Origin: an uncultured Candidatus Berkelbacteria bacterium
Lineage (GTDB): Bacteria > Patescibacteriota > UBA1384 > UBA12157 > JAENIV01
Direction of reading: 5' to 3'
Length of the DNA stretch: 55,518 nt
NCBI GenBank assembly: GCA_963698075.1
Contig: OY969116.1
Coordinates: forward strand, 255,492 to 311,009
Shown here piece by piece: positions 2,834-44,352 of this stretch. The translations under genes and the position numbers were made by a program. Under the pieces are notes generated by a model. That model was not told the origin of the DNA. It was given only the letters and a program-made list of their open reading frames with translations, and did no database searches. Position 1 is the stretch's first letter. Every line of letters starts with the position of its first letter.

Positions 2834-3187
2834 TTATTTAATTTTTGCAGAAATGCTTTGCAGAATTAAAGTTAGCTCATGACTTTCCTGCCACAGTATT
2901 TTAGCTTGTTTTCCTTCATTTGGCAAACATCTGATGATCATTCGAAGCCAATGTTTAGTCTCTTGAGCCTCTTTTTTAGAAATATTTATTTTGTTTTTGA
3001 AATCTTTTCTAGAACTGGCGGAATTAGCTTCCATATAATTGGCTCCGATACTTGTACCTGATCTTACAAGCTGACTTATTATTGGCCGAGTAATTATGTT
3101 TTGTGTTATGCTTTTACAAAAATCGATGATATTTTCGCCGAATTTGGCAGTTCTTTCCTCGAGATCATATTTTGAAATTTGAGGCAT
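2834..3187 (-). CDS. four-helix-bundle protein (23S rRNA intervening-sequence protein family)
   Basis: 117 aa with the typical pattern: FGENIIDFCKS, QLVRSGTSIGANYMEA, SRKDFKNKINISKKEAQETKHWL. Confidence 0.85.
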   Translation of the reverse strand: MPQISKYDLEERTAKFGENIIDFCKSITQNIITRPIISQLVRSGTSIGANYMEANSASSRKDFKNKINISKKEAQETKHWLRMIIRCLPNEGKQAKILWQESHELTLILQSISAKIK

Positions 3188-29915: not shown

Positions 29916-31892
29916 TTATTTAATTTTTAAAAGTCTGGCGTTTATGGCCACAATAATAGTGCTAAGCGACATTAACGCCGCCCCAATGGCTGGCGAAAGC
30001 AGAATCCCAAACCGATGGAGAACACCGGCGGCTAAAGGAATGGCGACGATATTGTAGCCAGCACCCCAGATCAAATTTTGGATCATTTTAGCATAGGTGC
30101 GCTTGGCCAATTGGATTATTTTTACCACATCTAAGGGGTTATTTTTGACTAAAACAATATCAGCTGCGGCTTGGGCGACATCAGTTCCGGCGCCGATAGC
30201 GATCCCAATATCGGCTTGAGCCAAAGCCGGAGCATCGTTGACGCCATCGCCGACCATCGCGACTTTGAGACCCTTGGCCTGCAATTCTTGGATTTTTTGC
30301 GATTTTTTATCAGGCAAAACTTCGCCAAAAAATTGATTAATTTTAAGTTTTTGGGCCACCTTTTTAGCCACCGCAAAGCTATCGCCGGTCAAAAGCACGG
30401 TTTTAATGCCCATTGCCTTAAGTCGTTTAATCGCCTCAAATGATTCGGATCTGATCCTGTCCTCCAAAACCAGCACCGCTACTGGTTTTTTATCAATAAT
30501 TAAATAAATAACCGTCCCGCTTTGGGCCTTCTTATCATAGCCAATCTTATTTTCAAGCAAATAATTTTCGCCGACGACTTGAATTTTTTGTTTTCCGATG
30601 ACTCCCTCCACCCCGCGACCAGGCAGGGCGCGAAAATTTTCAACTTCAAAACGCGCCTTGGTTGAGGCGGCAATTACTTTTGCCATCGGGTGCTCGGACC
30701 TCGCCTCCAAAGAAGCCGCGTATTTTAGAATTTGCGTTTGGTTAAATTTTGAATCCAGCACTCTAATCTCCGCAATCGTAAACCGACCCAGCGTCAAGGT
30801 ACCAGTTTTATCAAAAACGACAGTATCAATTGCCCTTGAAGACTCAAAGGCGCTGCGATTTTTAATGATAAAACCGTTTTTGGCCGCCAAGGTGATGGAG
30901 ATGGCCACAACCAAAGGAATCGCCAATCCTAAAGCGTGCGGACAGGCGATTACCACGACCGTAATTGCTCTTTCAAGAATAAAGGGGGTTGTTTGGTGAG
31001 TCGCCAAAAACCAAGCTAAAAAAGTTAAGACGCCGCATAGCGTGGCAATTATTACCAGATACATCGCCGCTTTATCGGCTAAATTTTGAGTTTTTGATTT
31101 GCTGCTTTGGGCTTGTCTTACCAATTTAATTACCTCGGCCAAATACGAACCCTCGCCTATTTTTCTCACTTCGGCCGTAACCGACCCTTCAGCATTAATC
31201 GAACCGGCGATAAGTTCGTCTCCGATTTTTTTGACGATAGGTTTTGATTCACCGGTCAGCATCGCTTCGTCAACCGTTGTTTCTCCTTTGAGAATGAGGC
31301 TATCAGCCGGAATTTTTTCGCCGGGCTTAATTAAAATTTTATCGCCGATTTTTAAGTCCCTTAAAGCAATATCGCTCGATCGTCCATTATCCAATCGATG
31401 AGCCAATGCCGGCAATAATTTGGCTAATTCCTCAAGGGCACCGCCGGCACTGGTCACCGACCGCATTTCCAACCAGTGCCCCAAAAGCATCACGTCAATT
31501 AAAGTGGCAAGCTCCCAATAAAAAACCATTCCGGAAAGCCCAAAAGTAATCGCCGCGCTATAAAGATAAGCCACGGTAATTGCTTCAGCCACCAGCATCA
31601 TCATGCCCGGTTTTTTGGCTTTAAGTTCAGCAATAAAACCCTTTGAAAATGGCCAGCCGCCGTAGAAAAATATTATTGAGGCCAAAATAAATAAGAGATA
31701 TTTATCGCCTAAAAAAGAGAGTTTGAAATGGAAAAAAACTTGAATTGTTTCGGAAAGAACCAGGACCGGGATTGTTAAAATCAGCGAGACCCAGAATCTT
31801 TTTTTAAAATCCGCCACCGAATGTCCGGCGTGACGATCGTGGGCGACATTTTGCTCGTGATGATGATGCTCTGAGTGATCCATTGAAGCCAA
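29916..31892 (-). CDS. copB: heavy-metal (copper) translocating P1B-type ATPase, CopB-like
   Basis: His-rich N-terminus (HSEHHHHEQNVAHDRHAGHS), CPH motif (ACPHALGLA), DKTGTLT, GDGVNDAPAL. The track start is a TTG; the ATG 9 nt downstream is an alternative. Confidence 0.9.
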   Translation of the reverse strand: MASMDHSEHHHHEQNVAHDRHAGHSVADFKKRFWVSLILTIPVLVLSETIQVFFHFKLSFLGDKYLLFILASIIFFYGGWPFSKGFIAELKAKKPGMMMLVAEAITVAYLYSAAITFGLSGMVFYWELATLIDVMLLGHWLEMRSVTSAGGALEELAKLLPALAHRLDNGRSSDIALRDLKIGDKILIKPGEKIPADSLILKGETTVDEAMLTGESKPIVKKIGDELIAGSINAEGSVTAEVRKIGEGSYLAEVIKLVRQAQSSKSKTQNLADKAAMYLVIIATLCGVLTFLAWFLATHQTTPFILERAITVVVIACPHALGLAIPLVVAISITLAAKNGFIIKNRSAFESSRAIDTVVFDKTGTLTLGRFTIAEIRVLDSKFNQTQILKYAASLEARSEHPMAKVIAASTKARFEVENFRALPGRGVEGVIGKQKIQVVGENYLLENKIGYDKKAQSGTVIYLIIDKKPVAVLVLEDRIRSESFEAIKRLKAMGIKTVLLTGDSFAVAKKVAQKLKINQFFGEVLPDKKSQKIQELQAKGLKVAMVGDGVNDAPALAQADIGIAIGAGTDVAQAAADIVLVKNNPLDVVKIIQLAKRTYAKMIQNLIWGAGYNIVAIPLAAGVLHRFGILLSPAIGAALMSLSTIIVAINARLLKIK

Positions 31893-31896
31893 TATT

Positions 31897-32229
31897 TTAG
31901 AACTTTATTTCTATTTCATTTTGCCACAACCCGTGGAGATTACAGAATTCGTAAGCGATAATTTTATCCGGCTTTTGAGCGAAAATTTCAAATTCCGCCT
32001 CTGGCTTGTCGCCAGGTTTTAAGAACTTTTTTCCAATCGGCCGACTGCCGTAGAATAGCTCAATGTAGACAATCTGATGTTCCGATGTCATTGGATGTTC
32101 GACTTTCCCAACTTTCACTTTAACCGAAAATTTAATGCCGACCCTGGGTTTATACGGCTCAATTTGCGGCCAGTGTTTTTGCTCGAGCTCACTTAGATTT
32201 TTGGGGTCTTTCGGTTTTTGCGCTTCCAT
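31897..32229 (-). CDS. superoxide reductase (desulfoferrodoxin/neelaredoxin family)
   Basis: 110 aa. [29 protein letters not shown] (Fe-ligand His/Cys pattern). Confidence 0.85.
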
Positions 32230-32309: not shown

Positions 32310-33293
32310 TTAACCTTCATACTTGATTGGTCTGGCCATGATTTGCTTCATGGCCTCCATTGGGGTGGACTGACCAGAAATAATCTGCCAGATAGCATAC
32401 GAAATCGGCATCGTCTCCGCAAAGTCAGAGCAAACCTGGGCCAAGGTAAGGGTTGTATGTATTCCCTCGACTGTTCCAATGATGCTCAAGCGTGCCTCCT
32501 GGACGGTTTTGGTCGCTAAGGCCTGACCGAACTTGAGGTTGCGCGAGTAAGGACTAAAGCAAGTCGCCCCGAGATCAGTCATGATCGTCGTCCCAGGCCC
32601 GAAAGTCTCAGGATGGCCAAGATGGCGCGAGGCAAAATCGCGAATTTCTTTGAGCCCCCGACTGGCGATCGCCATCCGAGTAGTCTCATCAAACCCAAGA
32701 CCAGCGGCTATCCCTGAGGCGATGGCAATCGTGTTCTTGAGGGCGCTGCCGATTTGACCGCCGTTAACATCACGAGAGTGATACGGCCTGATAAGCGTCT
32801 GTTGAAAGAGACCAACAACGCGTTTAGCTGACGATTCGTCGCTTGAGTAGGCCGTCCCGATCGTTGGTGAACCCCTAAGTAAACCTTGAGGAAAAGCGGC
32901 ACAGGCAAAATGAACAAACTTATATCTTTCGGAGTCAACGATGTGACTTGGCAAAATCAAACCCTGCTCATGACAATCGATCATCTTGGCAACATTAACG
33001 ACAATCGTCTTCGGAGAAATCGACTGTCGCCAGCTTTCCCAAGCAGCCGCCAGAGCCTCTCCCGGGAGCGCCAAGATCACCAATTCCAGGTCATCACCAT
33101 CACCAGAGCAAGTAATCGCCACCTGCTCAGGGATAGGGAATCCTGGCAGATTTTGACTTTCTCGCTCGTTGATGAGCTGTTCAACCTCTGATGTCAGACA
33201 GAATAAGGTCACCTGGTGGTTAACTTGGGATAGCAAAATCGCCAGCGCGGTCCCCCAGCGACCGGCTCCGATAATGCCGACTTTAGCTCTCAT
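32310..33293 (-). CDS. gpsA: NAD(P)H-dependent glycerol-3-phosphate dehydrogenase
   Basis: IGAGRWGTALA Rossmann N-terminus and ALKNTIAIASGIAAGLG. The start overlaps the upstream stop (ATGA). Confidence 0.9.
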   Translation of the reverse strand: MRAKVGIIGAGRWGTALAILLSQVNHQVTLFCLTSEVEQLINERESQNLPGFPIPEQVAITCSGDGDDLELVILALPGEALAAAWESWRQSISPKTIVVNVAKMIDCHEQGLILPSHIVDSERYKFVHFACAAFPQGLLRGSPTIGTAYSSDESSAKRVVGLFQQTLIRPYHSRDVNGGQIGSALKNTIAIASGIAAGLGFDETTRMAIASRGLKEIRDFASRHLGHPETFGPGTTIMTDLGATCFSPYSRNLKFGQALATKTVQEARLSIIGTVEGIHTTLTLAQVCSDFAETMPISYAIWQIISGQSTPMEAMKQIMARPIKYEG

Positions 33294-35056
33294 GACCTTA
33301 CCCTCCCTAGCCAGATGCCGCGCTCATCAAGATCTGAGGCATGGACAATCATGCCATACTTCTCGCCCTCCTCAATGAACCAGTCGATCAGATTATGATC
33401 AATACTGGCCAGACTCGCATTTTCGTAACGTCCAGTGCTTGCCAAGATTAGACACTCAGCCAAACACGCCGGAACAAGCGGATGTCTGACGCCATCGACT
33501 TCGACAAAACCGAAGTGGAAGTCAACATCGCTCTTGGCATGTCCTGGCAGCTGAATCAGTCCGCAACGAATGAACGTGACGTCAGGCCGAAGAGGCTGAA
33601 CTTCTTCGATTAGCACGTCCACCGGCACGGCAATATCCAATACGATCGCGCCGGGCTTAAGAACGTGGGCGTTCTTGGCGGTCATTAGCGGCTTTTCTGA
33701 ACTCGTGCCGAAGATGACAACATCGGCTTCTGCCAACTCGGCAAGTTCCTCAGTGGAAAGAACCGTCTCGATGTCGTCTGCTTGAACCACTTTCGATTTA
33801 GTCCGAGCAAACTGCAGGAGACGACCGACGAGATGACGACGGGCTCGGAAGTAGAAGATTAGCGCTTTGCAGATAACGCCAGAGGCGCCGACGAAAGCGA
33901 CAGTCAAGCCCGTCAAATCTGGCCTGAATTTGCGCAGCGCCTCGAGCGTGGCCGCCGCCGTATAGGCACCGCCATTACTGATGGTGATGGCAAGTTTTCT
34001 TTCCTTACGCGCCCATTCTTGAAGCGTGGCCCCACCTCCGGCAGATGAGGAAAGACGCGCCCCTAGACCTTCAATAGTGGCTCCTAAGCGCTGAGCCATC
34101 ACTGCGCCTCGCTTGAGAAAGCCATCGAGAATCCTGGCGAGCAGTCTTTCTTCTTCGGTTGCAGTTTCTTCCCTACCTCGCTTTGCCGCCGCAAGTTGAT
34201 CAGGAAGCATTGGGACTGCCAACAGCGCTACCGTCGCAGGCCGACCAGAGGCCTCAACCACACCCGTAATCTCGCCGGCGTTCATGATCGGCGCGTGCGC
34301 AACGATCCAGCGCATCGAACGTTCCGAAAGCCAGCCGCGCTTTAGCGCCTTAGTGATCCAACGCGAGATACGGTTTTGAGCGTAGTCATCGCTTGAAAGC
34401 GGGTGGACCTTAAACGCCACGCGCACGCCGTGTTTTTCACCGTGAACGGCAAATGTTTGGCCGAACTTATGTTCCGAGCCAGAAATGAGATTGCCGATAT
34501 TTCGGCGATGGGTCCAGAGGATGAAGAGGGCCAGTAACTCCGTCGTCCAGATCCAAAATGGCCCCTTGTGAAACGCCCATGCCATCACGAACGCTGTGAT
34601 CGCTCCAAGCATGGAGCCAAGTGAAAGGTATCTGGTTGTTCCTAAAACCAGAAGAAAGACAGCCGCTGCTATACCTGCAATCAGCGGTTGCAGGGCCATC
34701 ATTCCGCCGAAAGCAGTCGCCACAGACTTGCCTCCGCTGAAGCGACCTTCGCGGATGTACATCACGAAGGAATAGGCGTGACCCAAGACGGCCGATGCCA
34801 TCGCAGCCAGACCCCATTCCAAGCCGCCGAGTTTATAGGCCAGTAAGGCCGGTAGATAACCCTTAAGGAAGTCGGCCAGAAACACTGGTAAGCCAACTTT
34901 CCATCCGAGAATCCGAAGCACGTTTGTCGCCCCAATGTTACCACTACCATGATCTCTAATGTCAAAGTCCTTCCCCTTGACTTTCTTCGCGATCCAAAGA
35001 CCCATTGGCAACGAACCCAGCACGTACGCTAATAAAACTAGCAGAACACCAATCAC
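33290..35056 (-). CDS. plsY: fusion protein: PlsY glycerol-3-phosphate acyltransferase (N) + acyl-ACP reductase-like / COG5322 Rossmann domain (C)
   Basis: aa 1-~197 match PlsY (GSLPMGLWIAK, HGSGNIGATNVLR, FLKGYLP). aa ~205-588 resemble cyanobacterial acyl-ACP reductase (VAFKVHPLS, SNGGAYTAAAT, VAFVGASGVICKAL, VPACLAECLIL). GTG start follows SD gaggagg. Confidence 0.8.
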   Translation of the reverse strand: MIGVLLVLLAYVLGSLPMGLWIAKKVKGKDFDIRDHGSGNIGATNVLRILGWKVGLPVFLADFLKGYLPALLAYKLGGLEWGLAAMASAVLGHAYSFVMYIREGRFSGGKSVATAFGGMMALQPLIAGIAAAVFLLVLGTTRYLSLGSMLGAITAFVMAWAFHKGPFWIWTTELLALFILWTHRRNIGNLISGSEHKFGQTFAVHGEKHGVRVAFKVHPLSSDDYAQNRISRWITKALKRGWLSERSMRWIVAHAPIMNAGEITGVVEASGRPATVALLAVPMLPDQLAAAKRGREETATEEERLLARILDGFLKRGAVMAQRLGATIEGLGARLSSSAGGGATLQEWARKERKLAITISNGGAYTAAATLEALRKFRPDLTGLTVAFVGASGVICKALIFYFRARRHLVGRLLQFARTKSKVVQADDIETVLSTEELAELAEADVVIFGTSSEKPLMTAKNAHVLKPGAIVLDIAVPVDVLIEEVQPLRPDVTFIRCGLIQLPGHAKSDVDFHFGFVEVDGVRHPLVPACLAECLILASTGRYENASLASIDHNLIDWFIEEGEKYGMIVHASDLDERGIWLGRVRS

Positions 35057-35132: not shown

Positions 35133-35369
35133 TTATTCTGATTTTTTTGAAAAAATAAAAATGTAAAGAATTTCCAAAATGCCAACCGTATTTACTATTA
35201 ATAGTACTATAAACCAGGCTTTCGCACTGTTACGCGCCGCTTTCCAAAGCGCTATCCCCTTCCAGGTCAAAGACCAGAGAATCAAAATTGTTAGCAAAAC
35301 ATTTAATAAAACCAAGTTTGTTGCCAAATTCGCTGGCCCAAATAATTGGAGCCATTCTTGTTGACTCAT
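35133..35369 (-). CDS. DUF5652 family small membrane protein
   Basis: Start moved to the ATG at 35369 after SD taggaggtaa. WKGIALWKAARNSAKAWFIVLLIVNTVGILEILYIF. Confidence 0.7.
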   Translation of the reverse strand: MSQQEWLQLFGPANLATNLVLLNVLLTILILWSLTWKGIALWKAARNSAKAWFIVLLIVNTVGILEILYIFIFSKKSE

Positions 35370-35477
35370 TTTACCTCCTAAATTTAGTATAGCATTTTTT
35401 TTGAAAAAATTTGCTAAAAAATGATATATTAAAGCTAAGGGGTTGAACACGAACACATGGGTGTCAGGGGGTGACCA

Positions 35478-37757: not shown

Positions 37758-37936
37758 CCTTTCGGACCGAGGTTTTCAAGGGTCACTGACCCGCCACTAA
37801 CATACTATATAGATAGCTCGTAATGCAAATCGAGTCTCCCTAAATCCTAGTCACTATCTATCATAGCGAACAAAAAGCGAACGCGTCAAGCCCGCGTTTG
37901 ACATCTTCAAACAATAGTATAATAATAGTATCACTC

Positions 37937-37965
37937 TTGACTTTTTCGATAATTTATGCTACAAT
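37937..37965 (+). promoter_or_regulatory. sigma70-type promoter
   Basis: TTGACT, 17 nt, TACAAT. Confidence 0.55.
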
Positions 37966-37993
37966 AACAAGTTATAAAATTAGAGGAGTCAAA

Positions 37994-38716
37994 ATGCAAA
38001 AATTCATTATTGGTTTACTTCTTCTTACCTTAATTTCTTGGGGATTTTTAGCTGATGCCAAAACCGCCCAAGCTAAAGGTAATCTCAAAGAAAAGATTTT
38101 TGTCCACTATCCCAAAGAGCCTGGCAAACCCACCCCCAGGACTTGTAATGTAACTACTAACGACCAAGTTCCCGATTACCTTTTAGTTGGCTGGCATATG
38201 CCGACTGAAGGTATGAGTTATAAAATCAATTTGTCCTCAAAATCAAAGGGTTTAAATAATAATCAGATAACCACTGCAGTGGCCAATGCCTTTAATACCT
38301 GGGCTGCGGTTGACGGCAAGCAAATTTTCCGCTATGGCGGAACAACCTCGGTTAAAAACCCTAAATACGACGGTACTAATGCCATTCTTTGGAAACCGCT
38401 AAACTCACAAGCCATTGCCATCACTTATGTTTGGTACTGGCCTGATACCGGTCTTTTAGCCGAAGCCGACACTGTCTATAACAGTAATTACAAATGGAGT
38501 TATACACCCTATCGAACCAGTGAATGCGGGGTTCAAGGAACTTATGACGTTCAAGATATCGGTACCCATGAATTTGGTCACTGGGTTGGTTTAGACGATC
38601 TTTACAACAGCATCGACCAAGACCTTACTATGTATGGTTATGGTAGTACTGCCGAGCTTAAAAAAGACACTTTAGGTTTAGGTGATATTTTAGGCGTTAA
38701 TTCAGTCGCGCCTTAA
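37994..38716 (+). CDS. secreted zinc metalloprotease (matrixin/metzincin-like)
   Basis: Start at the ATG at 37994 after SD agaggag. Signal peptide MQKFIIGLLLLTLISWGFLADA. Zinc motif HEFGHWVGLDD. Confidence 0.8.
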   Translation: MQKFIIGLLLLTLISWGFLADAKTAQAKGNLKEKIFVHYPKEPGKPTPRTCNVTTNDQVPDYLLVGWHMPTEGMSYKINLSSKSKGLNNNQITTAVANAFNTWAAVDGKQIFRYGGTTSVKNPKYDGTNAILWKPLNSQAIAITYVWYWPDTGLLAEADTVYNSNYKWSYTPYRTSECGVQGTYDVQDIGTHEFGHWVGLDDLYNSIDQDLTMYGYGSTAELKKDTLGLGDILGVNSVAP

Positions 38717-38717
38717 A

Positions 38718-40484
38718 CTACCAACCTCCGCCACCCCCTCCGCCGCCACCCCCTCCAGAAAATCCGCCGCCACCAGCCCCTGAGGAGGAGGGTGACGATG
38801 AGATCGTTGAGGACATATTACTCGATAAACTCGAGATTGCCGTATTAAAGCTATCAACATTAAAAGAGGCCAAGGCTACACCCGTAAACCAAACCGGATG
38901 GTAAGTTGTAAAATAGTCTTCACCATAAATTATTTTCATTTTATTAATCCACTCTTTCGTTATCCCGAAGACCATTGCATAAGGTAAAAATTTTTCAAAA
39001 ATGTTCTCCTTTTCGTTAAATCTCTGACGATATTTTTCAGCTGTATTCATATAAAGTTTGAAGCCCTCAATCCTCCGAAAAAGTTCGGCTTCTTCTTTAG
39101 TTCTTTGGCGCATCAGTAAACCAAAAACAATCAAGAGGCCTGCCGTCAAAAAACAACTGACGATGGTATAAAATTTGTGAGCTTCGACTAAAATAAAAAA
39201 TAAAATAATCGCAATTGTAATATAAAACTTAAAGAATTTCCGACTGCGCGGTTGAAGCCATTTTTTAGACTTAAGATCATCACGAATAAAATCACGAAGG
39301 TCCGGAATTTCTCTATAAAACTTATTTTTAAGATTGGAAATTTTCTTTTGATCACTGCTACCAAAAATTTTTTCCATTAAAAGTTTTTCCGATCCGGTCA
39401 AATCATTTTGGTTTTTACTAGTAATTGTTAATTGATAATCATCTTTCGATCCTAGAAAACCTTTGGTTTGAATTTTTTCAATCTTAATTTTACCTTTGAC
39501 GGCCAGATTAATAATGGCTGCGGAAATGTAACTTCCGCTTAACTCGCCATCAGAAATAATCATTCCCATTTCCATTGGCTGAAGTTTTTCGGGAATTTCA
39601 AATTCGGGAACAATTGTTTTGTTTATTTTCGGATCGCGGCCATACAAAACCCATAAGACAAAACTGATCAGCAAAACTAGACCGGGTAGTAAAAACCAAT
39701 ACGGACTGCCGAAATCATCTTTCGAATTGCCGGTAGAGCTAGAACCACCTTGATAATATTGCTGATCAGCGGTGGTCAATTGATAAGGGCTGATAATATT
39801 TTTGGGGAAAGTGACTGAGGCGGTTATTCCTTCCTTCGTTTTCAGTGTCCCAGTTGAAGTAAATTCAAGAATATTATTAGTCGACCAAGCGTAATTGGCG
39901 AGTGTTTTATCTTTTGAACCAAACTGGCCGGTATAATAATCAACAGTTGAATTGGTTTTGGTAATTTCGGTGGGAAGGGTAATCTGAGACTTAAAATTGT
40001 CAATTTCAATGTCCCAAAAATTGCCATTTAGATTCCAGTAGAACTCATCAAATTGGGCATTATCAAAGCGGAGGGTATTCTTGACTTGATATTTAATCTG
40101 ATAATAATTAACACCTTTAACGGTTTTGTTGGGATCGCCAATTTCCCAGGTGATAGTGTAATTATTATTATCTTTTATTTCCTGATATTTGATAGATTTA
40201 CCATTAAAGTCCGTAATACTTTCAAGATAAATTGGGGTCAAGACCGCTTCGGTTGAAGTCTTTTGGTAGCGGGTTGAAAGCACGCGAAAAATTCCGTGTT
40301 TCCCGCTCGCATTGCCGCAGTCAGCAGTTATTTTCTCCGTAATCGAAAGCGACGAATCATAATTTACGACAATTTCTTGCTGAAAATCCCTAACATACCA
40401 ATAATTAACATTTTCCCGGGCCAAACATCGCCAAGGAATTATTAAAATGACTAAAATCAATAATAAAGATCTAAAAATCTTCAT
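38718..40484 (-). CDS. DUF2207 domain-containing membrane protein
   Basis: 588 aa. N-terminal signal, extracellular domain and TM cluster, plus the characteristic Gly-rich C-terminus SSGAGGGGFSGGGGGGGGGGGW. Confidence 0.85.
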   Translation of the reverse strand: MKIFRSLLLILVILIIPWRCLARENVNYWYVRDFQQEIVVNYDSSLSITEKITADCGNASGKHGIFRVLSTRYQKTSTEAVLTPIYLESITDFNGKSIKYQEIKDNNNYTITWEIGDPNKTVKGVNYYQIKYQVKNTLRFDNAQFDEFYWNLNGNFWDIEIDNFKSQITLPTEITKTNSTVDYYTGQFGSKDKTLANYAWSTNNILEFTSTGTLKTKEGITASVTFPKNIISPYQLTTADQQYYQGGSSSTGNSKDDFGSPYWFLLPGLVLLISFVLWVLYGRDPKINKTIVPEFEIPEKLQPMEMGMIISDGELSGSYISAAIINLAVKGKIKIEKIQTKGFLGSKDDYQLTITSKNQNDLTGSEKLLMEKIFGSSDQKKISNLKNKFYREIPDLRDFIRDDLKSKKWLQPRSRKFFKFYITIAIILFFILVEAHKFYTIVSCFLTAGLLIVFGLLMRQRTKEEAELFRRIEGFKLYMNTAEKYRQRFNEKENIFEKFLPYAMVFGITKEWINKMKIIYGEDYFTTYHPVWFTGVALASFNVDSFNTAISSLSSNMSSTISSSPSSSGAGGGGFSGGGGGGGGGGGW

Positions 40485-40485
40485 T

Positions 40486-40875
40486 CTACTTTAGATAATT
40501 TTTTATTCGCTCGGCAAGTTTAGACGGCGTGATGCTTTCTTTGAGCACATACTCTTTGGCCCCTAATTCAATCGCCTCGGCGATTTTCTCGTCATGGGCA
40601 TAATTTGTCAAAATAATCACTGGCATGGTTAACAATCCTTCTTCTTTCATCTTCTTGAGCATCCCCAGTCCATCCATTTCCGGCATTCTAATATCAACCA
40701 GCGCCAAATCGGGTCTTTCGTGTTCGATTAAATCTAAACCCTCCTTGCCGTTATTCGCGGTCAAAACTTCAAATTCTTTGGCCAATCCCCGCGAATAGAG
40801 ATCCAAAATCATTTGCTCATCGTCAATGAGAACAATTTTACGTCCGCCAGAGGCGGATTTCGCGTCGCTCAACAT
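40486..40875 (-). CDS. response regulator, receiver domain only (CheY-like)
   Basis: KIVLIDDE ... DLALVDIRMPEMDG ... VIILTN ... GAKEYVLK. Confidence 0.9.
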   Translation of the reverse strand: MLSDAKSASGGRKIVLIDDEQMILDLYSRGLAKEFEVLTANNGKEGLDLIEHERPDLALVDIRMPEMDGLGMLKKMKEEGLLTMPVIILTNYAHDEKIAEAIELGAKEYVLKESITPSKLAERIKNYLK

Positions 40876-40947
40876 TTTTGCCTCCTTAATTTAATTATAC
40901 TCTTGAGTTTCTGGGTTGTCCATTCTAGAATCAAGTTAGGAGGAAAT

Positions 40948-41763
40948 ATGAGCGTAGAGCATGCAATGCGACCGATTTGGTCTGGTACTATCAGTTTTGT
41001 ACTCGTTAATATCCCCGTGCGGCTATATACCGCCACTGAGGAGCGGTCAATTAATTTTAATCTATTACACAAAGATGATCTCTCCCGCATCCGTTATTCG
41101 CGGATTTGTGAGGTAGAAAACAAAGAAGTTCCTTATGAGGAATTAGTCCGAGGGTATGAATATCAAAAGGGCGAATACGTCGTCATTGACGACGAGGATT
41201 TGGCCAAAGCCGATCCCAAACGCTCCAAATCAATCGAAATTGTTGATTTTGTCAACGCTAGCGATATCGATACAATTTATTATGCTCATCCTTATTATCT
41301 TGAGCCGGAAGAAGGGGCGGAAAAAGCTTACGGATTACTCAGAGGAGCTTTGGTTAAATCCGATAAAGTCGCGGTCGCCAAATTCGTCTTAAAGGACAAA
41401 GAACATCTGGCAGTTCTGCGGCCGGATGCCAATATTATTGTTCTTCAGCAACTCCGTTTTGACCATGAAGTTCGAAAACCGGAGGGCCTAAAATTGCCGA
41501 AGACGAGCGAAGCAAAGTCCGCCGAAGCTTCAGCGAAGGCGGAAAAAGAACTTCAGCTGGCTTTGTCTTTAATCGAAAAACTCACCGGCAAATTTGATCC
41601 TAAAGCATTCAAAGATGACTATTATGACACTTTAATGAAAATCATTGAAACCAAAGCTAAAGGCAAATTAATTAAGCCTTTGTCCGCCGAACCAACCCCC
41701 ACCGAATTTGCCGATTTAATGGCCAAGTTGAAAGAAAGTTTGGAGAAAGAACCTACTAAATAA
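40948..41763 (+). CDS. ku: Ku protein (NHEJ)
   Basis: Start at the ATG at 40948 after SD aggagg. IWSGTISFVLVNIPVRLYTAT and a Lys-rich C-terminal tail. Confidence 0.92.
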   Translation: MSVEHAMRPIWSGTISFVLVNIPVRLYTATEERSINFNLLHKDDLSRIRYSRICEVENKEVPYEELVRGYEYQKGEYVVIDDEDLAKADPKRSKSIEIVDFVNASDIDTIYYAHPYYLEPEEGAEKAYGLLRGALVKSDKVAVAKFVLKDKEHLAVLRPDANIIVLQQLRFDHEVRKPEGLKLPKTSEAKSAEASAKAEKELQLALSLIEKLTGKFDPKAFKDDYYDTLMKIIETKAKGKLIKPLSAEPTPTEFADLMAKLKESLEKEPTK

Positions 41764-41767
41764 CTAG

Positions 41768-41918
41768 GAAGCGAAGCCAAATGCCCTCAAAAGTGGCTAT
41801 CGCAGGCCAAAAAGCATGGCTCCGAGGTAGTCCGAGGATTTTTGGCCGAGATCGCAGGCACCGATTGCGCGCTGGAGCAATCGTAGTGCCGGCATCTTTT
41901 GACGGGTGTTGGCGAGCG
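41768..41918 (+). repeat. ~150-nt GC-rich structured repeat, copy B
   Basis: Same orientation and architecture as 24274..24423. It occupies the Ku-LigD intergenic spacer. Confidence 0.85.
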
Positions 41919-41942
41919 ACATCTCCGAGTTGAAACATTATA

Positions 41943-43436
41943 ATGCTCAAACAGTATCAATCAAAACGAAAATTCGCCCAAACGCCAGAACCCCGCGGCG
42001 CCGCCCCAGAGGGGGCTCTGCCCCGGCGGGGTAAAATATTGAAATCCGTTACTAAGCATGCTAAGGCTGTTTTTGTCGTCCAAAAACATCAGGCGCGCAA
42101 TTTACATTACGATCTTCGTCTCGAAATGGATGGTGTCTTAAAATCTTGGGCGGTACCCAAAGGCCCAAGTATGAATCCGGCTGACAAACGTTTAGCGATG
42201 ATGGTCGAAGATCATCCGCTTGAGTATAAAGATTTCGAAGGCATGATCCCCGAAGGCCAGTACGGCGCGGGGAAAGTGGAAATTTGGGATAAAGGCACAG
42301 TTGAATTTATCAATCGTGATCTTTCGCATGCTATTTCCGGCGGGCATCTCACTTTTGTTTTAAATGGCAAAAAATTAAATGGCGAATTTGCCTTGGTCAA
42401 AATTAAAAGGCCTCGGACCAAAGGCGGCGAACCCTGGCTTTTAATTAAAGCCCACAATAAATCACCTAACAACCCAAAGACCACCTACGCGGTGGTCTCT
42501 AACAGGTTAAAAATACCACATCACATCAAACCGATGCTCGCCACTTTGGTCGACGAACCGTTTGATAAAAAAGACTGGATTTTTGAAATCAAATGGGATG
42601 GCTATCGGGCAATTGCTGAGATCGATAAAGAAATTAAACTCTACTCGCGCTATGGCAATCTTTTTAACGACAAATATCCGGCAATTGTTGAGGGTTTAAA
42701 AAAGGTGGGTCATCGGGCGGTTCTGGATGGGGAGATCGTGGCCTTAGATACTGAGGGACGTTCGCAGTTCCAACTATTACAAGACTATCAAAAAAGTCAT
42801 CACGGAAATCTCATCTATTACGTATTTGATATTCTGTGGCTTGACGGCAAGGATTTAAGAAAACTGCCGCTCATTGAACGCAAAAAGATCTTAAAAGATT
42901 CTCTACCGGAAATTGCCAATATTAAATACAGCGACCACGTCGAAGAAAACGGCAAAGAGTTTTTTGAGGCCGCGACTAAAAAAGGGCTGGAAGGTATCAT
43001 CGCCAAAGATGGTACGAGTCTGTATGTCGAAAGTCGCGCCAAAGCTTGGCAAAAAATTAAAAACATCAATGAGCAGGAAGTGGTCATTGCCGGCTTTACC
43101 GAGCCGCGCGAATCCCGAAAATATTTCGGAGCTTTGGTTTTGGGTGTTTATGAACGCGGGAAGTTAATTTATGTCGGCCATTCCGGCAGCGGTTTTAATG
43201 AAGCGTCTTTAAAAGAAATCTATGGCAAAATGAAACCGCTTATTATCGAAAAAAGTCCATTCGATATTGAGCCGAAAACTAACGAGCCGGCAACATGGAT
43301 TAAGCCAAAACTTGTCGGCCAAGTTAAATTCGCCGGATGGACCCGCGACGGCCTCATGCGCCAACCGATATTTTTGGGCCTACGCGATGATAAAGAGGCG
43401 AAGGAAGTTAAAAGAGAAGGATATCATGACCGATAA
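41943..43436 (+). CDS. ligD: ATP-dependent DNA ligase LigD, phosphoesterase + ligase domains
   Basis: PE domain FVVQKHQARNLHYDLRLE..SWAVPKGPS. Ligase domain KPMLATL and FEIKWDGYR (KxDG adenylation). Confidence 0.9.
   Translation: MLKQYQSKRKFAQTPEPRGAAPEGALPRRGKILKSVTKHAKAVFVVQKHQARNLHYDLRLEMDGVLKSWAVPKGPSMNPADKRLAMMVEDHPLEYKDFEGMIPEGQYGAGKVEIWDKGTVEFINRDLSHAISGGHLTFVLNGKKLNGEFALVKIKRPRTKGGEPWLLIKAHNKSPNNPKTTYAVVSNRLKIPHHIKPMLATLVDEPFDKKDWIFEIKWDGYRAIAEIDKEIKLYSRYGNLFNDKYPAIVEGLKKVGHRAVLDGEIVALDTEGRSQFQLLQDYQKSHHGNLIYYVFDILWLDGKDLRKLPLIERKKILKDSLPEIANIKYSDHVEENGKEFFEAATKKGLEGIIAKDGTSLYVESRAKAWQKIKNINEQEVVIAGFTEPRESRKYFGALVLGVYERGKLIYVGHSGSGFNEASLKEIYGKMKPLIIEKSPFDIEPKTNEPATWIKPKLVGQVKFAGWTRDGLMRQPIFLGLRDDKEAKEVKREGYHDR
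41991..42031 (+). repeat. GC-rich palindromic in-frame element (copy 1)
   Basis: ccccgcggcgccgccccagagggggctctgccccggcgggg, encoding PRGAAPEGALPRRG. Its reverse complement aligns with 43958..43992. Confidence 0.7.
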
Positions 43437-44352
43437 AATTGTCATCATTGACGGGAAAAAATTGAAGCTGACGAATTTAGAGAAAGGATTATTTCCCAAT
43501 ATTACTAAACTTGATTTGATTAATTATTTCGATGAAATGGCCGAATATATTTTGCCGTATTTAAAAGATCGGGCACTTTCAATGCACCGGTTTCCTGATG
43601 GAATTAGTGGCGAGGGATTTTTCCAAAAAAATGTCGAGGATTTGGCGCCTGACTGGGCGACAACAAAAAAGATCAAGGATGAGGAAGGTAAAACCATCGA
43701 ATATTTAGTTTGCAACGATAAAGCCACGCTAATCTATCTTGCCAATCTTGCCTGCATCGAACTCCATCCCTGGCTTTCAAAAATTGAGGATTTAAAACAT
43801 CCGGATTTTTTGGTTTTGGATTTGGATCCCGAGGATGTACCCTTTTCGAAAGTTGTTGAGGTCGCCCTGGCCGCCAAGAAGGTTTTGGATAAACTTGATA
43901 TTACGGCTTATATCAAAACCTCCGGCGCCCGCGGCCTGCATATTTTTATCAATGTCGGAGCCCGCCGGGCAGAGCCCTCTGGGGCGGAGCCCAAATACAC
44001 CTACGATCAAGTCAAAGATTTTGCGGAAATTTTAGCCCGTTTAATCAACAAAGAAATCCCCGAAATCACCTCGCTCGAACGTCTGCCCGAAAAACGAAAA
44101 CACAAAGTTTATATTGACTGGCTCCAAAACGCCGAAGCGCAGACTGTCGTTGCCCCTTACTCCCCCCGCCCCACCAAAGAAGCGTCGGTTTCCGCACCCC
44201 TGGGGTGGGATGAGATAGGTTCAAAAATTAAACCTTCAGATTTTACTATCCATAATATCCAAACCCGCCTCAAATCCAAAGGCGATATTTTCAAAAAACT
44301 CCTCGACGAAAAAGCAATTGACATTAAAAAAATAGTCGAGAGAGTTAAATGA
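43426..44352 (+). CDS. LigD polymerase/primase domain protein (separate ORF)
   Basis: Start at the ATG at 43426, overlapping the ligase stop by 11 nt. HPWLS, LVLDLDP, IKTSGARGLHIF. Confidence 0.88.
   Translation: MTDKIVIIDGKKLKLTNLEKGLFPNITKLDLINYFDEMAEYILPYLKDRALSMHRFPDGISGEGFFQKNVEDLAPDWATTKKIKDEEGKTIEYLVCNDKATLIYLANLACIELHPWLSKIEDLKHPDFLVLDLDPEDVPFSKVVEVALAAKKVLDKLDITAYIKTSGARGLHIFINVGARRAEPSGAEPKYTYDQVKDFAEILARLINKEIPEITSLERLPEKRKHKVYIDWLQNAEAQTVVAPYSPRPTKEASVSAPLGWDEIGSKIKPSDFTIHNIQTRLKSKGDIFKKLLDEKAIDIKKIVERVK
43958..43992 (+). repeat. GC-rich palindromic in-frame element (copy 2)
   Basis: gagcccgccgggcagagccctctggggcggagccc, encoding ARRAEPSGAEP inside the polymerase domain. Confidence 0.7.

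What the first reader, a model, noticed from the sequence alone, without database searches (positions are those of the whole stretch)
33290..35056. PlsY fused to an acyl-ACP-reductase-like (COG5322) Rossmann domain: possible PlsX substitute
Residues 1-~197 (nt ~34466-35056) are a normal PlsY. Residues ~205-588 (nt 33290-~34444) align by eye with cyanobacterial acyl-ACP reductase: VAFKVHPLS vs FGLIGHLTS, SNGGAYTAAAT vs TTGNTHTAYV, VAFVGASGVICKAL vs VAVVGATGDIGSAV, and VPACLAECLIL vs FACFAEAMLL, which holds the acyl-accepting Cys. PlsY needs acyl-phosphate, normally made from acyl-ACP by PlsX. A covalently linked domain that forms an acyl-Cys intermediate from acyl-ACP could hand the acyl group to phosphate or directly to PlsY. 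The gene overlaps gpsA (ATGA), so the unit would make lysophosphatidate from DHAP and acyl-ACP. I am not aware of a described fusion of this kind.
Basis: inference. Interest (0 to 1): 0.7.

Follow-up and report, generated by a model that had tools for sequence, protein, structure and literature searches.

The report
PlsY fused to acyl-reductase-like domain
This gene really does join the membrane enzyme that starts bacterial phospholipid synthesis (PlsY) to a soluble domain related to cyanobacterial acyl-ACP reductase; the fusion is conserved across several phyla, nobody has studied it, and it might explain how tiny Patescibacteria supply PlsY with its acyl donor.

Summary
ORF 33290-35056 (-) encodes a 588-aa protein. 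Residues 1-199 are a canonical PlsY: above the curated equivalog cutoff, with all catalytic residues present. Residues about 211-580 have the acyl-ACP reductase (AAR/COG5322) fold: profile E about 1e-30 to AAR and the PigE N-domain, Foldseek TM 0.65-0.74. Cys531 aligns with AAR Cys294, and the nucleotide/phosphopantetheine cleft is retained. It is not an artefact. All 85 fused C-domains sampled form one clade, found in Patescibacteria, Deinococcota (essentially all Deinococcus, plus Truepera), Armatimonadota and Bacillota MAGs. Databases name it only as PlsY, and no paper found describes it. The fused clade has its own active-site signature: xNG(G/A)A instead of T(T/S)GN(S/T), and PAC instead of (Y/F)AC. 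The clade has two types. Type I, which includes the window protein, keeps a canonical PlsY and has His514. Type II (Deinococcus and others) has lost essential PlsY residues. Function is inferred, not shown. My best guess (about 0.4) is that an acyl-S-Cys intermediate is resolved by phosphate to give acyl-phosphate, which passes to PlsY. The main rival is a reductase making fatty aldehyde. Whether carrier genomes have plsX or ACP could not be tested here.

The parts
33290..35056 (-). Whole fusion gene (588 aa plus stop codon; GTG start)
   Evidence: ORF list; translation check; full-length homologues; full-length AF2 model with pLDDT 90.4 and pTM 0.87
34460..35056 (-). PlsY domain, residues 1-199 (helical membrane domain; the solved homologue aaPlsY has 7 TM helices)
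   Evidence: PF02660 1.3e-46; TIGR00023 154.4 bits vs cutoff 137.2; 5xj5 8.6e-33; helices in the model
34913..34948 (-). PlsY motif GSGNIGATNVLR. S38, N40, A43/T44 and R48 correspond to aaPlsY S35, N37, A40/T41 and R45.
   Evidence: Alignment to 5xj5; residue roles from PMC5700162; coordinates
34715..34762 (-). PlsY loop MYIREGRFSGGKSVAT. It contains the phosphate-hole Lys110 (aaPlsY K104), preceded by a 5-residue insertion found only in fused PlsYs; His93 (aaPlsY H92) lies just upstream of it, at 34778-34780.
34499..34510 (-). PlsY G3P-binding residues His183 and Asn186 (aaPlsY H177/N180)
34418..34480 (-). Linker, residues 193-213 (coil, lower pLDDT). It continues the cytoplasmic C-terminal end of PlsY.
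   Evidence: Secondary structure and pLDDT of the full-length model; alignment
33293..34426 (-). AAR-superfamily (COG5322-like) domain, residues 211-588
   Evidence: Profile vs PDB: PigE-N 2.6e-31, AAR 4e-30, GluTR 4e-11; AF2 pLDDT 89.4; Foldseek AAR TM 0.65-0.74, CarI TAD next
33959..33982 (-). Motif ISNGGAYT, the fused-clade version of the T-T/S-G-N-S/T loop that packs against the catalytic Cys in TAD/AAR. Asn361 is present in 83/85 fusions; relatives have T or S.
   Evidence: Column statistics; position of the TTG motif relative to the Cys from the TAD structure paper
33869..33892 (-). Dinucleotide / phosphopantetheine-ADP binding loop VGASGVIC (GxxGxxG/A/C type)
   Evidence: Aligned to AAR 162-GATGDIG-168
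33803..33805 (-). Arg418, equivalent to AAR Arg189 (pocket for the 2'-phosphate of NADPH or the 3'-phosphate of CoA)
   Evidence: R in 59/85 fusions
33623..33640 (-). LDIAVP. Asp474 to Pro478 form the nicotinamide-ribose loop (TAD D2169...cisP2173; AAR D-G-G-Y247-P). Both end residues are invariant.
33563..33568 (-). Arg497-Cys498. Specific to the Patescibacteria group; non-fused relatives have Asp/Glu-Gly here.
33509..33523 (-). DFHFG motif. His514 is present in 34 of the 35 fusions that keep the four canonical PlsY residues S35, T41, H177 and N180.
33464..33466 (-). Cys531 codon (TGT), the predicted acyl-accepting nucleophile, equivalent to AAR Cys294. It is preceded by the fused-clade-specific Pro529.
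32310..33293 (-). gpsA (NAD(P)H-dependent glycerol-3-phosphate dehydrogenase). Its start overlaps the fusion's stop codon (ATGA).
   Evidence: the same adjacency occurs in L002, L055 and L056

Best explanation
The gene encodes one bifunctional membrane enzyme.

Shown:
- The N-terminal half is a canonical acyl-phosphate:glycerol-3-phosphate acyltransferase (PlsY).
- From its cytoplasmic C-terminal end, a short linker leads to a roughly 380-residue domain with the acyl-ACP-reductase (AAR/COG5322) fold.
- That domain has an invariant nucleophilic Cys531 sitting at the bottom of a conserved nucleotide/phosphopantetheine cleft.
- This fused subfamily forms a single clade with its own active-site signature.

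Inferred:
- Instead of reducing the acyl-S-enzyme, it lets inorganic phosphate attack it, giving acyl-phosphate.
- The labile acyl-phosphate passes directly to the adjacent PlsY site. PlsY releases phosphate again when it makes lysophosphatidate.
- With the translationally coupled gpsA, the unit would turn DHAP plus an acyl donor into lysophosphatidate without PlsX.
For: Identity of the two halves and the real fusion.

The PlsY half needs acyl-phosphate. All acyl-phosphate and G3P binding residues defined in PMC5700162 are present, and the equivalog score is above the cutoff.

The C-domain chemistry starts with an acyl-S-Cys intermediate. Cys531 is invariant and aligns with AAR C294. The ADP cleft is conserved (G-loop, R418, D474...P478), and in AAR this same cleft binds both CoA and NADPH.

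The fused clade replaces the T-T/S-G-N-S/T loop that abuts the Cys in the proven or presumed reductases (AAR, PigE) and in TAD. It also replaces the aromatic residue before the Cys. Both changes are consistent with a change of the group that resolves the thioester.

His514 is present in 34 of the 35 fusions that keep the four canonical PlsY residues S35, T41, H177 and N180. The Patescibacteria group also has Arg497 where relatives have Asp/Glu. These are candidate phosphate ligands.

Precedents:
- A PlsY-DegV (FakB-like acyl-donor escort) fusion at the same C-terminal position has been interpreted as acyl-phosphate channelling (PMC5700162).
- TAD is an AAR-fold domain proposed to resolve its acyl-S-Cys with a non-hydride nucleophile.

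Other support:
- The full-length model has pTM 0.87, suggesting a fixed inter-domain arrangement.
- CPR genomes are reported to have PlsY and PlsC but no PlsX (PMC7242380).
- gpsA is directly downstream in 4 of 7 type I loci.
- The annotated ORFs of the 55-kb window include no plsX, acpP, fab or fak genes.
Against: - No biochemical evidence exists, and phosphorolysis by an AAR-fold enzyme has never been shown.
- The nicotinamide-ribose loop (D474...P478) and the 2'-phosphate Arg are conserved, which would equally fit retained NADPH-dependent reduction.
- CPR are reported to lack ACP as well as PlsX, so the acyl donor is unclear. CoA chemistry was seen in only one related locus (L054).
- The fusion is universal in Deinococcus, which from general knowledge (not tested here) has type II fatty acid synthesis. 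There the PlsY half is non-canonical (32-57 bits on TIGR00023, with S35, T41 and H177 replaced). The ancestral role of the pair therefore need not be PlsX plus PlsY.
- Non-fused relatives sit with aminotransferases and lipid-binding SRPBCC proteins, pointing to aldehyde formation as the family's default chemistry.
Confidence: 0.4

Rival explanations
1. Branch-point reductase. The C-domain keeps the family's NADPH-dependent chemistry and reduces an acyl group, taken from acyl-phosphate or from an acyl thioester via acyl-S-Cys531, to a fatty aldehyde. It sits on PlsY because both use the same membrane-delivered acyl donor. The aldehyde would feed alkylamine, fatty alcohol or ether-type lipid synthesis.
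For: - The Cys, G-loop, 2'-phosphate Arg and nicotinamide-ribose loop are all conserved.
- The characterised or structurally studied relatives are AAR (a proven thioester reductase), the PigE N-domain (matches only; its activity was not checked here) and TAD (NAD-binding, activity undetermined).
- A free-standing relative lies in an aminotransferase-SRPBCC-AAR-like cassette, and some relatives are fused to class-III aminotransferases.
- Deinococcus and Thermus major lipids contain long-chain alkylamines (PMC3398001), and the fusion is universal in Deinococcus.
Against: - The fused clade has lost the T-T/S-G-N-S/T loop that is conserved in the reductases.
- No aminotransferase or alcohol-forming gene recurs next to the fusion in 44 loci.
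- Genome-reduced Patescibacteria have no known use for fatty aldehydes.
- In type I the partner is a canonical PlsY followed by gpsA, a context that points to plain phospholipid synthesis.
Confidence: 0.25
2. Phosphorylating fatty-aldehyde dehydrogenase, working like GAPDH or aspartate-semialdehyde dehydrogenase in the oxidative direction. Fatty aldehyde plus NAD(P)+ gives acyl-S-Cys, and phosphate then releases acyl-phosphate for PlsY.
For: - It uses every conserved element: the Cys, the NAD(P) cleft, and possible phosphate ligands H514 and R497.
- It needs no ACP, CoA or ATP, which fits the reported gene content of CPR.
Against: - No source of fatty aldehydes is known in these organisms.
- There is no sequence membership in the phosphorylating dehydrogenase families (Semialdhyde_dh E 0.062, below cutoff).
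- The characterised relative AAR runs in the reductive direction.
Confidence: 0.1
3. Non-catalytic or carrier role. The domain binds or covalently holds an acyl chain (a built-in acyl carrier or escort, like the DegV fusion), or senses NADPH or acyl-CoA to regulate PlsY. It would not make acyl-phosphate itself; acyl-phosphate would come from FakAB or PlsX encoded elsewhere.
For: - The PlsY-DegV precedent, where the fused partner is a binding protein.
- The presence of Fak or PlsX elsewhere in the genomes could not be excluded.
- The hydrophobic acyl tunnel is a family feature.
Against: The Cys and the whole cleft are invariant over about 30% identity and four phyla. That is more typical of catalysis than of binding alone.
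Confidence: 0.1
4. Assembly or frameshift artefact that joins two separate genes.
For: None found.
Against: - Continuous ORF.
- Same architecture in well over a hundred independent sequences, including complete Deinococcus chromosomes.
- Conserved linker.
- All fused C-domains form one clade.
Confidence: 0.01

Closest known systems
Cyanobacterial acyl-ACP reductase AAR (PDB 6jzq/6jzu/6jzy; TIGR04058)
   Same: Same three-part fold (TM 0.65-0.74). The catalytic Cys is at the N-terminus of the same helix. Also shared: the GxxGxxG loop, the Arg for the 2'/3'-phosphate, the D...P nicotinamide-ribose loop and the N-terminal FxxH motif.
   Different: About 20% identity, and 30 bits against a 450-bit equivalog cutoff. 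T-T-G-N-T is replaced by S/D/T-N-G-G/A-A, and F-A-C by P-A-C. It is fused to a membrane protein. No ADO partner gene was seen. AAR R314 has no equivalent in the window protein.
PigE N-terminal domain (prodigiosin MAP pathway; PDB 4ppm)
   Same: The best sequence match (profile E 2.6e-31 over residues 4-335). It is likewise an AAR-like domain fused to the enzyme of a neighbouring step.
   Different: PigE's partner is a class-III aminotransferase at the C-terminus. PigE keeps the T-S-G-N-S loop. The window protein's partner is PlsY at the N-terminus.
CarI terminal amidation domain, TAD (PDB 9e4s-9e56)
   Same: AAR-like fold with an invariant Cys at the end of the NAD/phosphopantetheine tunnel. 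Its acyl-S-Cys is proposed to be resolved by a nucleophile other than hydride.
   Different: TAD is NAD-specific (Asp2102), keeps the T-T-G motif, has a macrodomain-like N-lobe that dimerises, and sits at the end of NRPS modules. Its activity is also still undemonstrated.
PlsX (acyl-ACP:phosphate transacylase, PF02504)
   Same: This is the function proposed here: making acyl-phosphate for PlsY from an acyl thioester.
   Different: No homology. No PF02504 or PlsX model hit was found for the C-domain. As far as I know, PlsX is not thought to use a Cys acyl-enzyme intermediate or a Rossmann cleft.
PlsY-DegV (FakB-like) fusions noted by Li et al. 2017
   Same: The partner is attached to the cytoplasmic C-terminus of PlsY, and the fusion is interpreted as delivery or channelling of the labile acyl-phosphate.
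   Different: DegV is a fatty-acid/acyl-phosphate binding protein that needs the kinase FakA. The domain here is an enzyme-like Cys/Rossmann fold.
Glutamyl-tRNA reductase (HemA; PDB 1gpj)
   Same: The Rossmann part is related (profile E 4e-11). From general knowledge, not checked here, GluTR also works through a Cys acyl-enzyme thioester that NADPH reduces.
   Different: Only the NADPH-binding domain aligns. The substrate and the overall architecture are different.

Membership tests
PlsY (TIGR00023 / PF02660) | Score above the curated equivalog cutoff | tested here: met
   154.4 bits vs 137.2; PF02660 159 bits vs 24.1
PlsY (TIGR00023 / PF02660) | Acyl-phosphate and G3P binding residues (aaPlsY S35, N37, A40/T41, R45, H92, K104, S142, H177, N180) | tested here: met
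   All are present in the window protein: S38, N40, A43/T44, R48, H93, K110, S145, H183, N186
PlsY (TIGR00023 / PF02660) | Acyl-phosphate-dependent acylation of G3P | not testable with these tools
   Needs an enzyme assay
PlsY, applied to the type II fusions (Deinococcota, Armatimonadota, Bacillota MAGs) | Equivalog score and catalytic residues | tested here: not met
   31.9-57.3 bits vs 137.2. S35 becomes A/P, T41 becomes E/G, K104 becomes R, H177 becomes F/Q or N180 becomes H/S.
Long-chain acyl-ACP reductase AAR (TIGR04058) | Score above the equivalog cutoff | tested here: not met
   29.8 bits vs 449.7; other fusions score 31-56 bits
Long-chain acyl-ACP reductase AAR (TIGR04058) | AAR fold with the catalytic Cys at the equivalent position | tested here: met
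   Foldseek TM 0.65-0.74; C531 aligned to C294; invariant in 85+108 sequences
Long-chain acyl-ACP reductase AAR (TIGR04058) | NADPH site: GxxGxxG loop plus the R189/R193/R314 pocket | tested here: inconclusive
   The loop is present. R418 and K422 are present. The R314 equivalent is deleted in the window protein and variable in the clade. In AAR the same pocket also binds CoA.
Long-chain acyl-ACP reductase AAR (TIGR04058) | T-T/S-G-N-S/T loop next to the Cys, shared by AAR, PigE, TAD (T-T-G) and 90/108 non-fused relatives | tested here: not met
   The window has S-N-G-G-A. N361 is present in 83/85 fusions.
Long-chain acyl-ACP reductase AAR (TIGR04058) | Partner aldehyde-deformylating oxygenase gene nearby | tested here: not met
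   No such family appears among the annotated genes of the window or of the type I loci. This covers only the stretches available.
PlsX (PF02504) | Sequence homology to PlsX | tested here: not met
   No PF02504 or PlsX model among the Pfam and NCBIfam hits. Any PlsX-like role would be by analogy only.
Phosphorylating aldehyde dehydrogenases (ASADH/ArgC type, PF01118) | Family score above cutoff | tested here: not met
   Semialdhyde_dh 14.1 bits vs 26, E 0.062
PigE-type reductase-aminotransferase | Fused or adjacent class-III aminotransferase | tested here: not met
   None in the protein, and none among the recurring neighbour clusters in 44 fusion loci, which were identified by similarity only. 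One is present next to the free-standing relative P0060.

The most novel reading that the evidence does not exclude
An AAR-fold domain has been converted from a thioester reductase into a Cys-dependent acyl-thioester:phosphate transacylase. This would be a second, non-homologous way to make acyl-phosphate. It is hard-wired to PlsY, and it would be how Patescibacteria (which are reported to lack PlsX and ACP) start phospholipid synthesis. The Deinococcus/Armatimonadota version, with its remodelled PlsY-like half, would be a further neofunctionalised pair, possibly acting in alkylamine-lipid synthesis.
Probability: 0.3. Interest if true: 0.85.

Novelty: new variant of a known kind. Interest (0 to 1): 0.65.

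Why it matters
PlsY needs acyl-phosphate, and only two sources are known: PlsX and the FakAB kinase. A published analysis of CPR genomes explicitly asks where their acyl-phosphate comes from (PMC7242380). A catalytic-looking domain welded to PlsY in exactly these organisms gives a concrete, testable candidate.

The fusion also occurs in cultivable, genetically tractable Deinococcus species, where it is annotated simply as glycerol-3-phosphate acyltransferase even though it lacks essential PlsY residues. It therefore also flags a probable systematic mis-annotation, and a possible entry point into the unknown biosynthesis of Deinococcus alkylamine phosphoglycolipids.

If phosphorolysis of an acyl-S-Cys in an AAR fold were shown, it would add a new reaction type to this enzyme superfamily.

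Tried and rejected
1. Artefact or frameshift: rejected.

2. Gene-neighbourhood inference. I clustered up to six neighbours for 44 fusion loci. The only recurrent genes look, by sequence similarity (they were not scanned against Pfam), like housekeeping genes: SHMT, dCMP deaminase, RpiB, Upp, GlnA, CysK. Apart from gpsA in Patescibacteria-type loci, no lipid, ACP, Fak or aminotransferase partner recurs.

3. plsX/acpP/fakAB co-occurrence. It could not be tested. Literature searches for plsX in Deinococcus and for DegV in Patescibacteria gave nothing useful.

4. The first locus scan with the 21-sequence alignment failed because no conserved stretch was available. It was repeated with a tighter alignment. 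That scan returned no close Patescibacteria relatives, only type II carriers.

5. Spatial test of whether N361, R497 and H514 surround Cys531. The model coordinates are not exposed, so I used published descriptions of equivalent loops in AAR and TAD instead. The position of R497 and H514 relative to the Cys remains unverified.

6. His514 as a universal fused-clade residue: rejected. It is present in only 43/85 fusions, though it tracks the canonical PlsY state.

7. Context of the closest free-standing relatives. P0057 is on too short a contig. P0058 and P0026 sit in a PatA_N-GTPase-hydrolase-hexapeptide-GGDEF cassette with no obvious lipid meaning.


Full report

The window holds an uninterrupted 588-codon ORF on the minus strand, 33290..35056, with a GTG start.

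Residues 1-199 match Pfam G3P_acyltransf (1.3e-46). They match the NCBIfam PlsY equivalog TIGR00023 at 154.4 bits, above its 137.2-bit cutoff, and the solved Aquifex aeolicus PlsY (5xj5, 8.6e-33).

Every residue that Li et al. (PMC5700162) identified as binding acyl-phosphate or glycerol-3-phosphate is present. These are aaPlsY S35, N37, A40/T41, R45, H92, K104, S142, H177 and N180, which correspond to S38, N40, A43/T44, R48, H93, K110, S145, H183 and N186 in the window protein.

The gene's stop codon overlaps the start of a bona fide gpsA as ATGA.

**2. The C-terminal domain**

Alone, residues about 200-588 give only weak hits: Shikimate_DH 2e-6, PigE N-terminal region 4.5e-12, AAR 3.7e-7 and GluTR 9e-5.

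A profile of 21 homologous C-domains hits the PigE N-domain (4ppm) at 2.6e-31, cyanobacterial acyl-ACP reductase (6jzq/6jzu) at about 4e-30 over almost the whole domain, and GluTR at 4e-11.

An AlphaFold model built with that alignment is confident (pLDDT 89.4, pTM 0.89). Its best PDB matches are the AAR structures (TM 0.65-0.74, E about 1e-18). Next comes the AAR-like terminal amidation domain (TAD) of CarI.

In particular Cys531 (P-A-C-L-A-E) aligns with the acyl-accepting Cys294 of AAR, and VGASGVIC aligns with AAR's 162-GATGDIG-168.

The D474...P478 loop corresponds to the loop that contacts the nicotinamide ribose in TAD (2169-DDSG-cisP-2173) and to D-G-G-Y247-P in AAR. It is invariant.

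The family assignment is therefore right at superfamily level. The domain is nonetheless far below the AAR equivalog cutoff (29.8 vs 449.7 bits).

**3. The fusion is real and widespread**

- The first protein search found 23 full-length fusions at 30-71% identity, one named Candidatus Berkelbacteria.
- An exhaustive profile search found 1217 clusters (at 50% identity) of the wider family at E<1e-30. The top-scoring roughly 40 are PlsY fusions.
- A scan of GTDB representative genomes returned 40 loci. At least 38 encode the fusion; two are cut by contig ends. They come from Deinococcus (including cultured species and complete chromosomes), other Deinococcales, Armatimonadota, Candidatus Nitrosymbiomonas and a Bacillota MAG.
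- A Deinococcus query gave 621 hits. The 120 listed are almost all full-length fusions (one 416-aa fragment), from dozens of named Deinococcus species and Deinobacterium. A cluster look-up added Truepera radiovictrix and a 'Patescibacteria group' MAG.
- Source names are 'glycerol-3-phosphate acyltransferase', 'predicted amino acid dehydrogenase', 'Quinate/shikimate 5-dehydrogenase...' or 'DUF205'. None recognises a second function.
- In a neighbour-joining tree of 195 C-domains, all 85 fused domains form one clade. The five apparently unfused members inside it are ORFs that start mid-domain, so they are probably fragments.
- The full-length AlphaFold model is confident as a whole (pLDDT 90.4, pTM 0.87) with only the linker (residues 193-213) weak. 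This suggests a fixed arrangement of the two halves.

**4. What distinguishes the fused subfamily**

I compared the 85 fused domains with 108 non-fused relatives, AAR and PigE.

Shared with relatives: F215, H218, G325, L331, G332, G362, T366, the G-loop, T451, D474, P478, G499 and C531.

Different from relatives:
- The loop that packs against the catalytic Cys in TAD (T-T-G) reads T-[TS]-G-N-[ST] in relatives but [TDS]-N-G-[GA]-A in fusions. N361 occurs in 83/85 fusions, while 90/108 relatives have T or S.
- The residue two before the Cys is Pro in 84/85 fusions, while 91/108 relatives have Tyr or Phe.
- GLGA-x-T-S becomes GLGA-x-[WL]-S.

These differences lie at or near the site where the thioester is resolved. 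They argue that the fused clade does not simply repeat AAR chemistry. They do not say what it does instead.

**5. Two types of fusion**

The PlsY halves differ sharply.

Type I comprises the Patescibacteria group, including the window protein, and a small high-GC soil group (P0019-21, P0050). It keeps all canonical PlsY residues and scores 129-154 bits on TIGR00023.

Type II comprises Deinococcus, Truepera, Armatimonadota and Bacillota MAGs. S35 is replaced by A or P, T41 by E or G, K104 by R, and H177 by F or Q, or N180 by H or S. In aaPlsY, mutating any of these residues lowers activity: alanine at S35 or K104 costs more than 92%, no substitute worked for H177, T41A is severe, and K104R keeps about 25%. 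Type II scores only 32-57 bits. It is probably not a glycerol-3-phosphate acyltransferase, despite its database name.

The C-domain co-varies with this split. His514 (D-F-H-F-G) is present in 34 of the 35 fusions that keep the four canonical PlsY residues S35, T41, H177 and N180, but is variable in the other fusions. The Patescibacteria group additionally has Arg497-Cys498 where relatives have Asp/Glu-Gly.

All fused PlsY halves carry 3-5 extra residues just before the phosphate-hole loop, compared with three unfused PlsYs.

**6. Context**

gpsA follows the fusion directly in 4 of 7 type I loci. No other lipid gene recurs. In 44 loci the recurrent neighbours look like housekeeping genes, judged by sequence similarity only.

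The annotated ORFs of the 55-kb window include no plsX, acpP, fab, fak or plsC genes, but the window is only about 6% of a 929-kb contig.

One related Patescibacteria locus carries pyruvate:ferredoxin oxidoreductase and an ADP-forming acyl-CoA synthetase, so CoA thioesters exist there.

Elsewhere in the wider family, the domain is fused to SRPBCC/START-like lipid-binding domains, to PilZ, to class-III aminotransferases and to an unassigned N-domain of about 310 residues. One free-standing relative lies in an aminotransferase-SRPBCC-AAR-like cassette. This points to aldehyde-to-amine chemistry as a common theme of the non-fused relatives.

**7. Mechanism**

Shown:
- A canonical PlsY that needs acyl-phosphate.
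- A covalently attached cytoplasmic domain with the AAR acyl-enzyme machinery (Cys plus an ADP/phosphopantetheine cleft).
- A subfamily-specific active-site remodelling.

Inferred (best explanation, about 0.4): the domain loads an acyl group from a thioester donor onto Cys531. Phosphate, not hydride, resolves the thioester, and the resulting acyl-phosphate is handed to PlsY, which regenerates phosphate.

Support comes from several sides:
- The logic of fused consecutive enzymes.
- The PlsY-DegV precedent and the argument of Li et al. that labile acyl-phosphate benefits from channelling.
- TAD as an AAR-fold domain proposed to use a non-hydride nucleophile.
- The report that CPR genomes have PlsY and PlsC but no PlsX.
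- The fact that in AAR the 'NADPH' cleft is also the CoA cleft, so its conservation does not by itself demand redox chemistry.

Against it:
- No enzyme of this fold is known to do phosphorolysis.
- CPR are also reported to lack ACP.
- The nicotinamide-ribose loop is intact.
- Type II fusions show that the pair exists where the PlsY half is not canonical.

The main rival (about 0.25) is a retained NADPH-dependent reductase that makes fatty aldehyde from acyl-phosphate or an acyl thioester. It is attractive for Deinococcus, whose major lipids contain N-glyceroyl alkylamines.

Less likely are a GAPDH-like phosphorylating aldehyde dehydrogenase (about 0.1) and a purely binding or regulatory role (about 0.1).

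**8. Novelty**

Both domain families are known. The architecture is visible in databases as PF02660+PF01488.

I found no paper that describes it. The one paper that looked for PlsX/PlsY and PlsY/PlsC fusions in Pfam reported only PlsY-DegV.

I rate it a new variant of known kinds. The biochemical question is open and testable, and it bears on a published open problem in CPR lipid metabolism.

The decisive missing piece is a census of plsX, acpP and fakAB in complete genomes that carry each type, followed by a simple acyl-phosphate versus aldehyde assay.

Noticed in passing
L014, L015, L021, L022 and other loci; proteins P0175-P0293: In Deinococcus, Truepera, Armatimonadota and Bacillota MAGs the fused 'PlsY' half lacks residues essential in canonical PlsY (S35, T41, H177 and/or N180). 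It scores 32-57 bits against a 137-bit cutoff, yet NCBI names it glycerol-3-phosphate acyltransferase. This is probably a neofunctionalised paralogue and a systematic mis-annotation. A link to the alkylamine phosphoglycolipids of Deinococcus is possible but untested.
   Followed up: partly
Proteins P0071, P0075, P0077, P0080, P0088, P0120; locus L052 1273-4069: The wider AAR-like family (1217 clusters at E<1e-30) has several uncharacterised architectures: SRPBCC+AAR-like (about 516 aa), PilZ+SRPBCC+AAR-like (781 aa), class-III aminotransferase+AAR-like (815 aa), and many proteins of about 700 aa with an unassigned N-domain of about 310 residues. There is also an operon-like cassette of aminotransferase, SRPBCC and AAR-like genes.
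   Followed up: partly
L007 5657-12886, L051 3420-10114: Free-standing AAR-like genes sit in a conserved cassette: PatA_N protein, small Ras/Arf-like GTPase, alpha/beta hydrolase, an unassigned ORF (weak V4R match in L007 only), hexapeptide-repeat protein, the AAR-like gene, then GGDEF response regulators and a giant multi-GAF protein. The function of the cassette is unknown.
   Followed up: no
window 34715-34762: All fused PlsY domains carry 3-5 extra residues (here Y-I-R-E-G) just before the GGK phosphate-hole loop, compared with three unfused PlsYs. This could be a docking element for the C-domain.
   Followed up: partly
window 40813-44352: A Ku protein plus LigD split into two genes (3'-phosphoesterase+ligase, and primase-polymerase). 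This looks like a full NHEJ set in what appears to be a small Patescibacteria-type genome (929-kb contig).
   Followed up: no
window 29916-32229; L056 9790-10119: A desulfoferrodoxin-family gene lies directly downstream of gpsA in the window, followed there by a P-type ATPase, all on the same strand. The desulfoferrodoxin position is conserved in the closest related locus.
   Followed up: no
window 35133-35456; L056 5686-5925: A small DUF5652 membrane protein lies upstream of the fusion in the window and again in a 59%-identical relative's locus.
   Followed up: no
window 38718-40484: The DUF2207 protein ends in a long Gly run (GGGGFSGGGGGGGGGGGW). The adjacent gene 37898-38716 has only a faint Peptidase_M10 match.
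   Followed up: no
window 2834-3187: A gene for a 23S rRNA-intervening-sequence protein family member (PF05635) lies next to obg.
   Followed up: no
whole window: G+C varies strongly along the window, from 0.38-0.39 at 22-24 kb, 38-40 kb and 48-50 kb to 0.55 at 0-2, 8-10 and 28-30 kb. The low-GC stretches coincide with glycosyltransferase/Wzz genes, the DUF2207 gene and restriction-like genes.
   Followed up: no
L006 2806-3102: An acylphosphatase gene lies about 7 kb upstream of a type I fusion in a high-GC soil contig. This is probably coincidental.
   Followed up: no
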